Positions 3,001-27,000 of a stretch of 64,000 nucleotides of DNA are shown piece after piece. This DNA is from Zootoca vivipara (taxonomy: Eukaryota). The position numbers were made by a program. The stretch covers positions 9,300,001-9,364,000 of the forward strand of contig NC_083277.1 of assembly GCF_963506605.1 (NCBI RefSeq), read 5' to 3'. Every line of letters begins with the position of its first letter. Position 1 is the first letter of the stretch.

Positions 3001-6000
3001 AACTTGACAGCTATGCCTCCATCCTTTTTTTTTCTCTTCGTGTCCGGAAAAATTGTGGGAAGTGAGTGGCAGAGTAGAGGGAGAAATGCAGGGTCTGATA
3101 GGACCTTTCGTTGCTCCCCTCGCGCGGCCGCTGTTTCCGGGGGGTTTGTTTTTCCTGAAACACTCGAAAGGGTTAAACTCGGGATCTTCCAGGGAGCAAT
3201 GCAGAAACGTGAAAAGCGGGTGGGGGTGTCAGTGGGGACCCCCGTCCCCTCCCAAAAGAAACCCCACTTCCTCTTCTTCCCTTGCAGGGATTTTTGCTTT
3301 TGAATGGCTGCGGGAGAGGTAAGTCTTTTTTAATATATCTATCTATCTATATATACGGGTTACAGGTAGGTAGCCGTGTTGGTCTGGATCGAAGTAAAAT
3401 AAAAAAATTCCTTCAGTAGCACCTTAAAGACCAACTAAGTTTTTATTTTGGTATGAGCTTTCGTGTGCATGCACACTTCTTCAGATATGAAGAAGTATCT
3501 GAAGAAGTGTGCATGCACACGAAAGCTCATACCAAAATAAAAACTTAGTTGGTCTTTAAGGTGCTACTGAAGGAATTTTTTTATCTATATATATATATAT
3601 ATTCCCTCCCCAAAAAAGGTCTTTGTGCAAAAGAAAGATGGAGATCCAGGAAATGGAGACATCAGAGGAGGGTGAGCGGCAAAAAGCTGCATCCCACCAC
3701 GACACCCCCCCCAAGAAAAAAATCAGTGAGGGGGGGGGGTGTCCAGGTCTCTGACTGCATGGGGGTCCCCTTCCTTGGAAGGAGGGCAGATAATCTGGGA
3801 CCTTACAGGAACAATATCCTGAAAGATCGGAGAAGTGTTGCTTCCAGGCAGATTTCAGCAAGCCACACGTTTTATGGGAACGTGGAAATCTGCCTCATAT
3901 AGAGTCATAGGATCGCAGAGGCGCAGGGGGTGTGCTGAATTTTGGCCTCCCAAAGAGTGCTGTTGAAATTTGAAGGGCCAACGTCCGCCTCTGCCTAGGA
4001 AACCAAGCTGTTGCTGCTGTTATCTTTATTTTTTACTACTGTTGCTATTATTATTTTTTAAAAAATATACAGGTGAAACTCAGAAAATTAGAATATCGTT
4101 GAAAAGTGCATTTATTTCAGTAATGCAACTTGTTCTTTTTTATTTTTCTTTTAATTTTTAAAAATGCTTTCTTTTGGAAATTCCACAGTAATAAAAGAAA
4201 TAGTTACAATAATACAAAGATAAACATAACTTATTACATGTCATTAATTACATTCCATTTATAATTGACCCACCTAACGACAAATAATTACAATTACTGC
4301 ACAACAAATAAAGGCTTGACATATCTTGCTTTGCATGTCATGCATCTATCTCATATATTGGTTTCACCTTTTAAGTTGCGTTACTGAAATAAATGCACTT
4401 TTCGACGATATTCTAATTTTCCGAGTTTCACCTGCATAGCGCCCTTCAGCTGCAGATCTCACAACATAAAAATACAATATAACAGCACAAAATAACCAAT
4501 AAAAACTAGAACTCCCCCCCCCAAACCAATGCCTCCCCTCTCCCCACCCCTCCCTCAAAAACATTTAAAAGGGGTATAAGATGCAGGTTGTCATTATTAG
4601 CTTGGATAACACTAATGCTGGAGGTATGAGGGGGACACAAACGTCGTTCTTTGAACTTCCTTAACTCATCTCGAATCCAAGCAATCCTCGCCATATAATA
4701 TAAATAAATAAGATTGCCGTGTAGGAAGGTGCAGTTGTGTATGTGTCACTTTTCTTTTTTCTTGTAGGAAGAGTTTCCCTATCGTGCAAACCAGGGCACC
4801 ACCCAGGGCTGTGATCAGGACACAGCTGCCTGTGATCCCCAAGCCCGGCCCATCCTGTCTACAAAACCAGAGGGTCAAGTCAATCGGCTTAGACCAGGGA
4901 TCACCCCCACTTGGGTGGTCACCTCTGCTTGGTCTGGAGCAGAAAATGGAGCAACCAAACTCTGCAAGTCCAGAACTAGAAGGGAGACCGGAAGCAGGAG
5001 GGGACCCACCCGAAGGCATGAAGGGGAATCCGGAGTGGTCAGGAGAAGAAGCGTGGAAGGGGTTGCACCGTCCTGAGGAGTTCTTGAGGGCGTGGGGGAA
5101 CCCAGTTCCTCTGGAAGACACACAACGGGACAACGTCCGAGCTTTCCTCTCCTCTTTTGAGCAAATCGCCGAAGCCTGCCAATGGCCCAGAGGAGAATGG
5201 GTGGGCCGGCTCCGGCCTGCGCTGAGCAGCTCTGCTGAACAGGCTTTGGGTAGACTGGAAGCCGCTGACAGGGAGGATTATGGGAAAGTGAAGGCCGCTG
5301 TCTTGCGGGAGGATGCTGTGAGGATGGAGGCGCAGCGCCGGGACTTCAGGCAGTTCTGCTACCAGAAGGCCGGAGACCCGCAGAGGGTTTATAGGCAGCT
5401 GCGGGAGCTGTGCCACCGGTGGCTGAAGCCGAAGAGACGCACCAAGGAGCAGATCGTGGACCTGCTGATCCTGGAGCAGTACCTGGCCATCCTTCCTCCT
5501 GAGCTGCAAAGCTGGGTCAGGGAAGAGGGGCCAGAGAGCTGCGCCCAAGCCGTGGCCCTGGCAGAGGATTTCCTGACCAGCCGTCGGAAAGCTGAGACGT
5601 GGAAGTGGCAGGTCAGAGCACTTAATCCAATTTCCCCAGGGACTTCCAGATTGGTTTGTTGCCATGTGCTTGTGCGTGGGGCTGCTCTTGGAGACGACTA
5701 GCAGCCAGATCTCTGGGTAGGGTTGCCACTGGTACTCATAAAGGTAAAGGCAAAGGGACCCCTGACCATTAGGTCCAGGCAGCGGCGTAGCGTGGGTTGT
5801 CAGCACCTGGGGCAAGGCAAGTAATTTGCGCCTCCTAACTTGCCTTAATTTGCCCCCTGCGCCGGACCAAGGAAGGGGGCTCGCCACTGCCGCCACGGAG
5901 CGCCTCTAGCCAGGCGCCTTCACCTTCCTTTGCTGAGCGAGTCTCCCGGGAGGGGGCGCCACAGCCAGAGGAGAGCGAACGGTTCCTTTGCCGAAGGGGA

Positions 6001-24000: not shown

Positions 24001-27000
24001 CCTCTCTCAGTCTCATTTTTTGGGGTGTGTGTGTGTGTGCCAGTGGGTCGACCTACTTCCTTTCCCCCCTGTCTCCCCACCCTCCCTATTCCTCAGTCCC
24101 CCACCCATTCCCAACCCCCAGGATTTGCCCCGTCTTTTAATGGTGGTGTGCCGCGTGATTTTTTTCATGGAACAAGTGTGCCTTGGCCCAAAAAAGGTTG
24201 AGAAACACTGCTCTAGGAAGTGGAGCCTCCCTCCCAGACACATAAATTCTCCTCCTTCCAAACAAGCTCAGAATATATTGTTTCGTTCCTGACAATGTCC
24301 CAGGTTCGATTCCCGGAAACGACAGGGAAGGAGACTCCCCCTCCCAAAAAGTTCTCCGGGGCAGGGAGGTGGCACAGCCTACAATTCCCCCTTCCTCTCT
24401 TTTAATCCTCTGCTGTTGTTACAGGAATTTTAAAATGATTGGTGAGGGGGGCTGCCCCTCCAGCACGCAGTGTGCCCCCCCTTCATTCACTCAAAGCCCC
24501 ACATAACGTTGTTCTGTTCAGGAAGGAAGTGGCTACCAAGGGGGGAGCTTGGGACATGAGCGAGGGCAGCCATGACCCCTAAAGCGTGAGCCCAGGTTTT
24601 CAGCAGCCCCTCTGCCTGAGGGAGCATCTCTGGCATCCTGACACCTGAGTGCCAGACAGGTAGCAATAGCAAAACTAGATCAGTACAAAAGGGGTGATTA
24701 ACGACATGATCTAAATATCTCTTTTGTACACTTAATTGATGTGTGGTGGAGGTCAAGGGAAGTTGGGGGCAAGCCCTGATGCTCAGCACCCAGACCCTCC
24801 CGACGGGGATGTATGTAGGAGTGTAATTTTAGGGGTGTTGTGGGTCTCTTTGAAAAAAGTCTTTTGTTGGTCTTTTGTTTCAGTGTATCTGCAGAAGTGT
24901 GCATGCACACAAAAGCTTATACCAAGAACAAACTTAGTGGGTCTCTAAGGTGCTACTGAATATTTATTTTTATTTTTTTAATATATATTTCGACAGCGTC
25001 AGACCAACACCTACCTGAATTTGTAAAACTGATTAAAGTGGGAGCCATCCTTTGTTCTGGGCTTCTTCCAGCTTCTCCCATGTGGTAGGTGGAAGTCCTG
25101 TTGCAAGAGTCTTTTGAATAAAGACCAGGCCTAGTGGCTGCTGTTTTGCTCCGCTATTCCTGGCTGGTGTCTTTGTTTGGTCATCAAAATGAGCTCAAGG
25201 ATTTTCCTATAACACGGGGGAGGGGATCTGGTCATTTTTACACCCATTTCAAGACGTGGGGGAGGCAGGGCCATGGCGTGGTGTCTGCAGTAAAACAGCC
25301 CTGCAAAGTAGACTGGATTTGTGGGGCTTGGAACAGTAACTTACAACAACCCTAAAGGGTAGTCCAGTGTCGTCATTACGGGTGCCTTTTTAAAATAGGG
25401 GCTGGTGTTTGAACTTGGGCTGGATGCAGGAAGGACCTTTGTTAAGGTTGAACCAAGGCTGCTGCGGGGATAAAATAAACTTTATGCAAGGCAGTAACCT
25501 CAACTCAAGGTTTCTGCTGATGGAGCACCTAGTGAGTGCTAGCATGGCAGGGCTTCTGGGGCAGCCTGTGTCTTGCAAGGAGGGTCCCAGCTCCAACACC
25601 AGACACCTCCAGTTGAACGCATGAGGTGGCAGAGGAGGGGAAGCCTCTTTGGATCGACCCAAACCATGGGATTCAAGTTACAATAAAGGCAACTCCAACT
25701 AATGTCAGGAAGAACTTTCTGGCATTTAAGAGCAATTAAACAGTGGAACGGTCTCCCTCAGGAGGGGGTGGACTCTCCTTCCTTGGAGGCTTTTAAGCAG
25801 AGTTTGGAGGGCCATCTGTCTTAGATGTTTGAGTTGAGATTCCTGCATTGCAGGGGGTTAGACTAGATGACCCTTGGGTTTAGCTTCCAATTCTACAATT
25901 CTATGGCCGTTTTCTACAGATCCTTAGGTAGTCCAGCATCCTGTTCTCACAGTGACCAACCAGATGCCCCTTTTGGGAAACCTGCAAGAAGGATCTGAGC
26001 ATAGGAGCAGCCATGGGTAACCATCCCCTCCATGAATGTGTCTCGCCTTCTTGTGAAGCCATGTGGATCGGGGCCCACACATTTTGTTTGACCAGAGTCA
26101 TTTTTCTGCCTGGGGCGACAGAGAATCCTATAATTGTAGGGCTGGAGGGACCCCAAGGGTCATCTAGCCCACATATCCCCCTGAAATGGAAGAAGGCAGC
26201 ACACACATTCACTGGTTCCAGCTGGAGGGGGGGCTGGGTTTTATTCTAGCTCCACCAACTGATGAGATTTCAAGATTTGCAGAGAAAAAAGTTACGAAAA
26301 AAAGATTTTAAGTGCTTATGCTGACAGATCATAAACTGGAAAATAACACTTATAACTGTAAGAATCTTATTTTTCCTTCTTTTAATAATTTCAATGTGTG
26401 TTTGGTGTTTGGGGGTGGATAAAAAAAAATTGGCACTGGGTACCACCTGACCTTAAGGGACCCAGGTGGCACCGCGGGTTAAACTTCAGAGCCTAGGGCT
26501 TGCTGATCAGAAGGTCGGCAGTTCGAATCCCTGCAACGGGGTTAGCTCTGGTTGCTCGGTCCCAGCTCCTGCCCACCTAGCAGTTCGAAAGCACGTCGAT
26601 GCAAGTAGATAAATAGGGACCACTCCGGCGGGAAGGTAAACGGTGTTTCCGTGCGCTGCTCTGGTTCGCCAGAAGCAGCTCTGTCATGCTGGCCACATGA
26701 CCCGGAAGCTGTCTGCGGACAAACGCCGGCTCTCTCGGCCTATAGAGCGAGATGTGCGCTGCAGCCCCAGAGTCGGACACGACTGGACCTGATGGTCAGG
26801 GGCCCCTTTACCTTTACTTTTCCTTACCACCTGACCTTGCTATGCCACTGCTTAGAGCAGCCCCCCTGCCTGTGCGAAGCGGACGTGAAGGAGCTGCCTT
26901 TTGCCTCTTGCTCTTTGGGGCTCCGTCGGGGACACCTCCACCCCGCCAATTGACTGGGGGAGTTGCTGGAAGAGGAGATTTGCACGACTTGCATTGCGGG

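What the first reader, a model, noticed from the sequence alone, without database searches (positions are those of the whole stretch)
5772..24218. Possible lineage-wide system: hAT elements shuttling GC-rich 5' gene ends
Two hAT elements with different TIRs, 17 kb apart, both enclose CpG-rich cargo, whereas the other TSD-bearing hAT MITEs here (27681, 38273, 51621) are short and cargo-free. Plant Pack-MULEs are known to prefer GC-rich 5' gene fragments. Two cases in one window hint that a similar process may be common in this lizard. This is inference from n=2.
Basis: inference. Interest (0 to 1): 0.72.

Follow-up and report, generated by a model that had tools for sequence, protein, structure and literature searches.

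The report
Lizard hAT transposon carrying a gene's start
One of two GC-rich hAT transposon copies in this lizard sequence carries a copied promoter region and first exon of the host gene OSBPL10, a kind of gene-fragment capture already known in other animals; the cargo of the other copy could not be traced to any gene.

Summary
Both elements are real. E1 (5780-6524) and E2 (23131-24210) each have near-perfect terminal inverted repeats and a perfect 8-bp target-site duplication. Both interiors look like CpG islands: GC 0.67 and CpG o/e about 0.8, against 0.35 for the window. The three other hAT MITEs are short (136-304 bp) and CpG-poor.

E2 is a SPIN-like non-autonomous hAT. Its interior holds a CpG-rich upstream region, the complete first coding exon of OSBPL10, the splice donor and about 160 bp of intron. 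The copy is changed at residues that are invariant in 11 reptile orthologues, so it is a captured copy and not the native exon. That makes E2 a Pack-hAT (transduplication).

E1 is a true insertion, shown by an empty site in a paralogous SINE. No host gene, coding exon or promoter motif was found in its interior.

The confirmed count of "5' gene end" cargo is therefore one, not two. Whether the loaded elements ever moved, and whether this is lineage-wide, could not be tested because no lizard genome was searchable. Pack-TIRs in animals, including SPIN-based and 5'UTR-carrying hAT cases, are already published (PMC8277862). Lizards were effectively unsurveyed there. Verdict: new member of a known kind, moderate interest.

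The parts
5772..5779 (.). E1 left target-site duplication GGTCCAGG
   Evidence: a paralogous SINE copy carries this site once and uninterrupted
5780..6524 (.). E1: 745-bp non-autonomous hAT-type element. It has 17-bp TIRs (16 of 17). Subterminal TTGCGCC-type motifs lie at 5822, 5846 and 6471. The CpG-island-like interior (about 5857-6468) contains (TG)9 and (GA)11 repeats. The origin of the interior is unidentified.
   Evidence: no coding or host match
6525..6532 (.). E1 right target-site duplication GGTCCAGG
5741..6840 (.). SINE copy that hosts E1, flanked by a direct repeat tggtactcata at 5730-5740 and 6841-6851. It lies in the intron after the SCAN exon of a + strand SCAN-zinc-finger gene.
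   Evidence: sequence; alignment to the SINE paralogue at 26457-26820; SCAN domain in the ORF 4712-5698
23123..23130 (.). E2 left target-site duplication CTCTAGGA. It fits the NYYTARRN pattern given for SPIN-type elements.
   Evidence: pattern from Table 1 of PMC3014272
23131..23196 (+). E2 left MITE backbone: the TIR CAGCGTTTCTCAACC plus three GTGCCGCG subterminal motifs
23197..23619 (+). E2 cargo, upstream part: CpG-rich sequence (o/e 1.0 over 23146-23619) with 1 CCAAT box, 1 GC box and a GGA repeat. I infer it is the OSBPL10 promoter and 5'UTR. The left boundary with the MITE backbone is not defined.
   Evidence: origin inferred from contiguity with the exon
23620..23981 (+). E2 cargo: a copy of the OSBPL10 first coding exon. 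It runs from the ATG through 120 open codons plus 2 nt and is followed by a GTAAAT donor.
   Evidence: 49 hits; 47 carry PF01237, 46 are named, all as oxysterol-binding protein or ORP10; 111 of 116 identical to Podarcis muralis ORP10
23982..24142 (+). E2 cargo: an intron-1-like stretch after the donor, CpG-poor (o/e 0.28 over 23982-24195), with a (GT)7 repeat
24143..24210 (+). E2 right MITE backbone: the motif TGGTGTGCCGCG (an exact repeat of 23185-23196) and the TIR
24211..24218 (.). E2 right target-site duplication CTCTAGGA
19292..19420 (+). Second copy of E2's first 129 bp with the same left flank, fused to zinc-finger exon sequence. It is part of a 100%/99.9% identical tandem duplication or an assembly artefact, not an independent insertion.
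27681..27923 (.). Short hAT-like MITE with no cargo (243 bp, TSD GGCAAGAC/GGCAAGGC)
38273..38408 (.). Short hAT-like MITE with no cargo (136 bp, TSD CTCTAGAC, TIR CAGGCATCCCCA)
51621..51924 (.). Short hAT-like MITE with no cargo (304 bp, TSD CTGTAGAG)

Best explanation
E2 is a non-autonomous SPIN-like hAT element. Its middle has been replaced or expanded by about 0.95 kb of filler DNA copied from the 5' end of the host gene OSBPL10. The filler comprises a CpG-island-like upstream region and 5'UTR, the whole first coding exon, the splice donor and about 160 bp of intron 1. E2 is therefore a Pack-hAT, a transduplication, and not the working exon.

E1 is a second genuine hAT-type insertion, from a different family. 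Its 0.6-kb interior resembles a CpG island but cannot be traced to any gene. It may be captured non-coding DNA, or it may be the ordinary interior of its family.

The most likely route (inferred, not shown) is copying of ectopic DNA by template switching while a double-strand break in or at the MITE was repaired, that is gap filling or fork-stalling template switching. My split for E2 is about 0.55-0.6 that a MITE already sitting here was filled in place, and about 0.3-0.35 that it was loaded elsewhere and then transposed here.

Shown: the TIRs and TSDs, the empty site for E1, the identity of E2's exon, and its divergence at invariant residues. Inferred: the promoter nature of the upstream part, the repair mechanism, and where the capture took place.
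For: Structure:
- Both elements have TIR and TSD pairs far beyond chance.
- An empty site in a paralogous SINE shows E1 is an insertion.
- E2's right TIR plus the next base matches the published SPIN_NA1_AC TIR CAGTGKTTCTCAACCT at 16 of 16. Its TSD fits NYYTARRN (against Table 1 of PMC3014272).
- Neither element contains internal TIR copies, so neither is a composite of two MITEs.

Identity of E2's cargo:
- Translating 23620-23979 gives 49 hits at E<=0.001. Of these, 47 carry the oxysterol-binding Pfam domain, and all 46 named ones are called oxysterol-binding protein or ORP10 by at least one source. The best hits are lacertid lizards.
- The copy is identical at 111 of 116 aligned residues to Podarcis muralis ORP10.
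- It differs by an inserted H, two S-to-R changes and an N-to-K change in KYTNLIQGWQ. These positions are invariant in all 11 reptile orthologues aligned.
- No other ORP10 exon lies in the window.

Literature:
- Animal Pack-TIRs are mostly single-copy and made by transposition-independent gap filling (PMC8277862, sections 7-8).
- A tandem-duplication junction lies inside E2's GC-rich hairpin, so template switching may occur at this spot.
Against: - No parent copy of either cargo lies in the window, that is within 23 kb upstream or 40 kb downstream of E2. In PMC8277862, 56.9% of Pack-TIRs lie within 15 kb of the parent, and the multicopy, transposed ones are always distal. This favours arrival already loaded.
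- In Anolis, most non-autonomous hAT families carry extraneous DNA and still amplified to tens or hundreds of copies (PMC3014272 abstract and passages). This also favours mobility.
- The MITE/cargo boundaries and any microhomology could not be defined without a family consensus or the parent locus.
- The upstream 420 bp is called promoter/5'UTR only because it is contiguous with the exon and CpG-rich.
- For E1 nothing positive identifies a host origin.
- The nearby 100%-identical duplication raises some doubt about assembly quality here.
Confidence: 0.8

Rival explanations
1. Lizard hAT MITEs of several families regularly pick up CpG-island 5' gene ends and carry them around the genome as mobile, multicopy Pack-hAT families, an animal counterpart of Pack-MULEs. 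E1 and E2 would be two arrivals of this kind.
For: - E2 carries a true 5' gene end and lies far from any parent copy.
- Two of the five TSD-bearing hAT elements in one 64-kb window have CpG-island-like interiors.
- hAT elements are the main DNA transposons of a lacertid genome, 2.3% of sequence (PMC9498476 passages).
- Anolis hAT families often incorporate extraneous DNA and still amplify.
- A frog hAT-N8_XT carrying a 5'UTR fragment amplified to three loci.
Against: - Only one of the two cargoes is shown to derive from a host gene.
- No second copy was found. A search with an ORF spanning E2's cargo/MITE/flank junction found nothing. This is weak evidence, because it is a protein database and a length window applied.
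- The window was picked after the fact from an unknown number of scanned windows.
- The only other E2 fragment shares its flank and is a local duplication.
- The TSDs do not tell loaded arrival from filling in place.
- In PMC8277862 only 4 Pack-TIRs (1.4%) were multicopy.
Confidence: 0.12
2. E2 was loaded elsewhere, at or near OSBPL10, and then transposed once or a few times to this site. No lineage-wide bias is implied.
For: - The location is distal to any parent copy.
- Intact TIRs and a perfect TSD.
- In frogs, 3 of 5 interchromosomal Pack-TIRs are multicopy (legend of Fig. 2a).
Against: Most animal Pack-TIRs are single-copy and filled in place, and 43% of those are also distal. No other copy has been seen.
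Confidence: 0.32
3. E1's GC-rich interior is the normal internal sequence of an ordinary multicopy non-autonomous hAT family. It is not a captured 5' gene end, and its CpG richness reflects youth or base composition.
For: - No ATG-led exon longer than 18 codons before a donor.
- No Pfam family in 6 overlapping ORFs.
- 0 hits among 1.84 billion representative proteins for the 246-aa frame, and 0 hits for the short ATG-led ORF.
- No GC box or CCAAT box.
- Anolis has hAT families of similar size (732-745 bp) whose interiors are unrelated to any autonomous element.
Against: A CpG o/e of 0.79 is unusual for a transposon in a genome whose background is 0.35. Only one of six frames went to the large HMMER search. 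Non-coding promoter or 5'UTR cargo would be invisible to every test available here.
Confidence: 0.5
4. E2 is not a captured copy. Either this is the native OSBPL10 first exon that happens to lie between MITE ends, or the interior is an assembly chimera.
For: - The exon is intact, with an ATG, an open frame and a donor.
- Absence of exon 2 within 40 kb does not exclude the native locus. That first introns of this gene are long is recalled, not tested.
- A 100%-identical duplication with an odd junction lies next door.
Against: - A perfect 8-bp TSD directly outside matched TIRs.
- The CpG-rich block starts at the TIR itself, only 71 bp from a truncated LINE.
- Four changes at residues invariant in 11 orthologues.
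- The surrounding genes are SCAN-ZNF and PRY/SPRY genes.
- A chimera would need both breakpoints inside one 1-kb MITE.
Confidence: 0.04

Closest known systems
Pack-TIRs of animals (Tan et al. 2021, PMC8277862), especially Pack-hAT cases: frog hAT-N8_XT with 291 bp of the CAPSL 5'UTR, and the SPIN_NA_1-based cases in bushbaby and tenrec
   Same: A non-autonomous hAT with TIRs and an 8-bp TSD encloses non-TE host DNA. The cargo comes from a gene's 5' end, and the backbone is of the SPIN type.
   Different: This case is in a lizard. That survey scored the one lizard genome as 0 Pack-TIRs, with 0 hAT among 77 consensus elements, so lizards were effectively unsurveyed (Supplementary Data 2). The cargo here is a complete upstream region, first coding exon and donor, not a UTR piece. 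The main text of that paper holds no occurrence of 'GC content' or 'GC-rich'. Copy number is unknown here.
Pack-MULEs of rice and other plants
   Same: TIR elements whose cargo is GC-rich and raises local GC content. [quoted passage not shown]
   Different: A different superfamily (Mutator, 8-11 bp TSD, long TIRs), in plants, with thousands of copies and a demonstrated genome-wide bias. Here there is one confirmed case and no genome-wide test.
Anolis carolinensis non-autonomous hAT/hobo families with 'extraneous' or 'filler' DNA (Novick et al. 2010, PMC3014272)
   Same: Lizard hAT elements that incorporate foreign genomic DNA between conserved ends. The TIR and TSD patterns match, with SPIN-type CAGTGKTTCTCAACCT and NYYTARRN.
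   Different: The filler described there is mostly fragments of other transposons. The words 'exon', 'host gene' and 'transduplicat' have 0 occurrences in that text. E1's TIR matches none of the TIRs in its Table 1.

Membership tests
hAT superfamily, non-autonomous element (E1 and E2) | 8-bp target-site duplication | tested here: met
   GGTCCAGG and CTCTAGGA, both 8 of 8. The blind scan found 6 pairs, against 1 pair in total across 20 shuffles.
hAT superfamily, non-autonomous element (E1 and E2) | Short TIRs with the terminal motif YARNG (as stated in PMC3014272) | tested here: met
   CAGCG and CAGTG at the ends of both elements. TIRs match at 16 of 17 and 14 of 15.
hAT superfamily, non-autonomous element (E1 and E2) | Insertion shown by an empty site | tested here: inconclusive
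   Met for E1: the SINE paralogue at 26457-26820 has the site once and uninterrupted. Not testable for E2, because its flanks have no paralogue in the window.
SPIN (Space Invaders) group of hAT (E2) | TIR CAGYGGTTCTCAACCT / CAGTGKTTCTCAACCT and TSD NYYTARRN (Table 1 of PMC3014272) | tested here: met
   The right end matches 16 of 16. The left end matches 15 of 16 if Y is allowed at position 4. The TSD CTCTAGGA fits.
SPIN (Space Invaders) group of hAT (E2) | Subterminal or internal similarity to a SPIN consensus | not testable with these tools
   No repeat library or lizard genome was on hand. Only the TIR could be compared.
Pack-TIR / transduplication | Non-TE host sequence between the TIRs | tested here: inconclusive
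   Met for E2, which holds OSBPL10 exon 1. Not shown for E1.
Pack-TIR / transduplication | A separate parental copy in the same genome | not testable with these tools
   No parent in the window. It is inferred from orthologues in related lizards and from the copy's changes at invariant residues.
Mobile (multicopy) Pack element, 'shuttling' | Two or more copies with the same junctions but different TSDs | not testable with these tools
   The only other fragment (19292-19420) shares its flank. The junction-spanning ORF search found nothing, which is weak evidence.
Pack-MULE-like bias for GC-rich 5' gene ends | Genome-wide excess of CpG-island or first-exon cargo | not testable with these tools
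   Within the window, 2 of 5 hAT elements have CpG-island-like interiors and 1 of 5 has a proven first exon.

The most novel reading that the evidence does not exclude
In lacertid lizards, several hAT MITE families capture CpG-island promoters with their first exon and splice donor far more often than the roughly 2 per 10,000 reported for animals. They spread these as mobile promoter-plus-5'-exon modules into gene clusters such as the SCAN-ZNF arrays, an animal counterpart of Pack-MULEs with the same GC-rich 5' bias.
Probability: 0.12. Interest if true: 0.72.

Novelty: new member of a known kind. Interest (0 to 1): 0.4.

Why it matters
A transposon holding a promoter-like CpG island, a first exon and a working-looking splice donor is a ready-made module for new transcription start sites and chimeric transcripts.

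Gene-fragment capture by TIR transposons is well studied in plants and has been catalogued once across animals. That survey effectively missed lizards, whose genomes are rich in young hAT elements.

If such captures are common in lizards, and biased towards CpG-island 5' ends, the Pack-MULE pattern would extend to vertebrates. It would also offer a tractable system for asking why 5' ends are preferred.

As it stands, this is one clean, well-preserved example.

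Tried and rejected
- **Parent copy in cis.** A sensitive blastn of E1 and E2 against the window found only self matches and the 129-bp duplicated left end.
- **Other ORP10 exons.** tblastn with 5 named ORP10 proteins hit only 23620-23982 at significant E-values. The other hits had E above 3.
- **Composite of two MITEs.** Neither element has an internal TIR-like site, allowing up to 4-5 mismatches.
- **E1 as a coding first exon.**
  - E1 has 3 ATGs on the + strand and 0 on the - strand. The longest ATG-to-donor stretch is 17 codons.
  - Pfam found no family in 6 ORFs overlapping E1 or in 7 ORFs in E2. I gave this scan 91 of the 174 ORFs of at least 90 aa, chosen by eye to drop overlapping shorter ones.
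  - HMMER search of the 246-aa frame 5839-6576 against 1.84 billion representatives gave 0 hits. Only this one frame was sent.
  - A word-index search with 6281-6400 against longer proteins at E<=10 gave 0 hits.
- **Further loaded copies.** The ORF 23372-24289, which spans cargo, right MITE end and flank, gave no hit at E<=0.01 among 168-536 aa proteins.
- **ncRNA origin.** Rfam gave 0 matches over the whole window.
- **Outer element starting at 23060.** No matching right end was found.
- **E1's TIR in the Anolis table.** Absent.
- **Literature searches.** One search was useless because 'hat' matched 'hatchling'. One search was badly designed. 'Pack-TIR' occurs in only 3 papers of the library, none on lizards.
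- **Spliced models.** Every exon or ORF was searched by itself.
- **Assembly gap.** The gap at 39036-39235 was left alone.
- **Unavailable resources.** No DNA-level search of any lizard genome was therefore possible.

Full report
**What is there**

The window is a lizard gene cluster. A + strand SCAN-zinc-finger gene has its SCAN domain in the ORF 4712-5698 and its C2H2 exon at 15200-16447. PRY/SPRY exons lie on the - strand. Further C2H2 arrays and many LINE fragments with endonuclease and reverse-transcriptase domains fill the rest (91 of the 174 ORFs of at least 90 aa were scanned). Overall GC is 0.47 and CpG o/e is 0.35.

**E1 (5780-6524, 745 bp)**

- The ends are CAGCGGCGTAGCGTGGG and its near-perfect inverted copy (16 of 17). 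They are flanked by GGTCCAGG on both sides.
- The TIR occurs nowhere else in the window: 2 matches against 0.08 expected.
- E1 sits inside a SINE, in the intron after the SCAN exon. A paralogous copy of that SINE at 26457-26820 runs straight through the site with a single GGTCCAG. E1 is therefore a real insertion that made an 8-bp duplication.
- The interior has GC 0.67 and CpG o/e 0.79. It holds (TG)9 and (GA)11 repeats and TTGCGCC-type motifs near both ends.

**E2 (23131-24210, 1080 bp)**

- The ends are CAGCGTTTCTCAACC and its inverted copy (14 of 15). They are flanked by CTCTAGGA on both sides.
- The right end plus the next base equals the SPIN_NA1_AC TIR CAGTGKTTCTCAACCT printed in Table 1 of Novick et al. 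(PMC3014272, passages read). The TSD fits that table's NYYTARRN. E2 is therefore SPIN-like by its ends. Internal similarity could not be tested.
- GTGCCGCG motifs mark the backbone. Three lie at 23153-23196 and one at 24148, and a 12-nt exact repeat TGGTGTGCCGCG occurs at both ends. At most about 946 bp (23197-24142) is therefore cargo.

A blind scan for perfect 8-bp TSDs around 12-bp TIRs recovered E1, E2 and the 38273 MITE. It also returned one pairing caused by a duplicated E2 left end and two pairings at a palindrome near 47971. Twenty shuffles gave one hit in all.

**What E2 carries**

The stretch 23620-23981 opens with an ATG, stays open for 120 codons and ends at a GTAAAT donor. I searched it on its own, as a single exon.

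- It gave 49 proteins at E<=0.001. Of these, 47 carry the oxysterol-binding domain PF01237. All 46 that have a name are called oxysterol-binding protein or ORP10 by at least one source. Lacertids (Podarcis, Zootoca) lead the list.
- Aligned with 11 named reptile orthologues, it is identical at 111 of 116 aligned residues to Podarcis muralis ORP10.
- It differs at four places where all 11 orthologues agree: an inserted H, two S-to-R changes in the [15 protein letters not shown] block, and N-to-K in KYTNLIQGWQ at the start of the PH domain.
- No other ORP10 exon is in the window.
- Upstream of the ATG lie 474 bp with CpG o/e 1.0, a CCAAT box and a GC box. After the donor, the sequence turns CpG-poor (o/e 0.28), as an intron would.

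The simplest reading is a genomic (not cDNA) copy of the OSBPL10 5' end sitting inside a MITE, drifting free of constraint. That is a Pack-hAT. Reading the upstream part as promoter/5'UTR is an inference from contiguity.

**What E1 carries**

Nothing could be identified.

- E1 has three ATGs on the + strand and none on the - strand. The longest ATG-to-donor stretch is 17 codons.
- Six overlapping ORFs hit no Pfam family.
- The 246-aa frame found 0 of 1.84 billion representative proteins. Only that one frame was sent.
- The short ATG-led ORF found nothing at E<=10.
- There is no GC box or CCAAT box, no Rfam match and no similar sequence elsewhere in the window.

The interior may be captured non-coding DNA, or it may be the normal interior of its family. 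Anolis has hAT families of 732-745 bp whose interiors match no autonomous element. The count of proven 5'-gene-end cargo is therefore one.

**How it most likely arose**

Tan et al. 2021 (PMC8277862; abstract, sections 7-9 and term searches read, supplements searched by term only) found 370 Pack-TIRs in 100 animal genomes.

- 208 of them were hAT-based.
- The rate was about two per 10,000 TIR elements.
- Nearly all were single-copy and were attributed to transposition-independent gap filling, with microhomology at the breakpoints.
- 56.9% lay within 15 kb of the parent.
- Only four were multicopy, and those lay far from their parents. One was a frog hAT-N8_XT carrying 291 bp of a 5'UTR, present at three loci.

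A TSD is expected under either route, so it does not show 'shuttling'. E2's parent is not within 23 kb upstream or 40 kb downstream, which leans towards arrival already loaded. The published base rates lean the other way. My split is about 0.55-0.6 filled in place and 0.3-0.35 transposed while loaded.

One local hint of template switching exists. The stretch 16348-18467 is 100% identical to 19423-21542, and 18462-19420 is 99.9% identical to 22302-23259. The new junction joins E2's base 129, in the loop of a GC-rich hairpin, to the middle of the zinc-finger exon. This may equally be an assembly artefact.

**Is it lineage-wide?**

This could not be tested. No tool here reaches a lizard genome.

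Indirect points in favour:
- hAT elements make up 2.3% of a lacertid genome (PMC9498476, passages).
- Anolis hAT families often take up extraneous DNA.
- One or two loaded elements among five is far above the published rate.

Indirect points against:
- The window was chosen after the fact.
- E1 is unproven.
- A search with a junction-spanning ORF found no second copy (weak evidence).

**Comparison with what is known**

The kind is known. Animal Pack-hATs have been described, including SPIN_NA_1-based ones in bushbaby and tenrec (Supplementary Data 1).

Three things are not in print as far as my searches show. 'Pack-TIR' occurs in 3 papers, none on lizards. The Anolis paper has 0 occurrences of 'exon' or 'host gene'.
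- A lizard case. The survey listed its one lizard genome with 0 hAT consensus elements and 0 Pack-TIRs.
- A capture of a whole upstream region, first exon and donor.
- Any GC or CpG-island bias in animals. 'GC content' and 'GC-rich' have 0 occurrences in the main text of Tan et al..

The Pack-MULE preference for GC-rich sequence and for 5' ends is stated in PMC5861414 (passages).

Supplements of Tan et al. were seen only through term searches, so individual cases there may resemble this one more closely than I can say.

**Verdict**

This is a new member of a known kind, of moderate interest.

Noticed in passing
window 16348-23259: 16348-18467 equals 19423-21542 (100% over 2120 bp) and 18462-19420 equals 22302-23259 (99.9% over 959 bp). 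The novel junction at 19420/19423 fuses base 129 of E2, in the loop of the hairpin CTGACCCGCCGG...CCGGCCGGGTCAG, to the middle of the C2H2 exon. This is either a very recent tandem duplication with a 759-bp indel between the copies or an assembly artefact.
   Followed up: partly
window 23060-23122 and 23146-23158: The 13-mer GCTGTTCCGCGGC of E2's left subterminal region recurs 57 bp upstream in the flank, giving 5 matches in the window against 0.41 expected. That flank begins with CAG exactly where the LINE homology stops (23059), but no matching right end was found. It may be a relic of a related element. This is unexplained.
   Followed up: partly
window 5780-5784, 6520-6524, 23131-23135, 24206-24210: In both E1 and E2 the left end reads CAGCG and the right end reads CAGTG. 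The only TIR mismatch in each element is a C/T at a CpG. In E2 the T lies on the CpG-poor side.
   Followed up: no
window 241-1400: This is the strongest CpG-island-like block outside the two elements (1160 bp, o/e 0.84). It holds 8 of the window's 22 GC boxes. It is probably the native promoter region of the SCAN-ZNF gene.
   Followed up: no
window 14565-16625 vs 43100-45157; 17461-18212 vs 46443-46985: The zinc-finger exon (98% identical) and the neighbouring PRY/SPRY exon are duplicated about 28.5 kb apart. The second copy is interrupted by a nearly intact LINE at 40193-43195, whose 971-aa ORF has endonuclease and RT domains.
   Followed up: no
window 47891-48232: A perfect 146-bp inverted repeat (47891-48036 against 48232-48087) produced spurious TIR/TSD pairs in the structural scan.
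   Followed up: no
window 34106-35942 and 61406-63318: Long 84-bp-period arrays on the - strand encode C2H2 zinc fingers. They are 85-90% identical within and between the two arrays.
   Followed up: no
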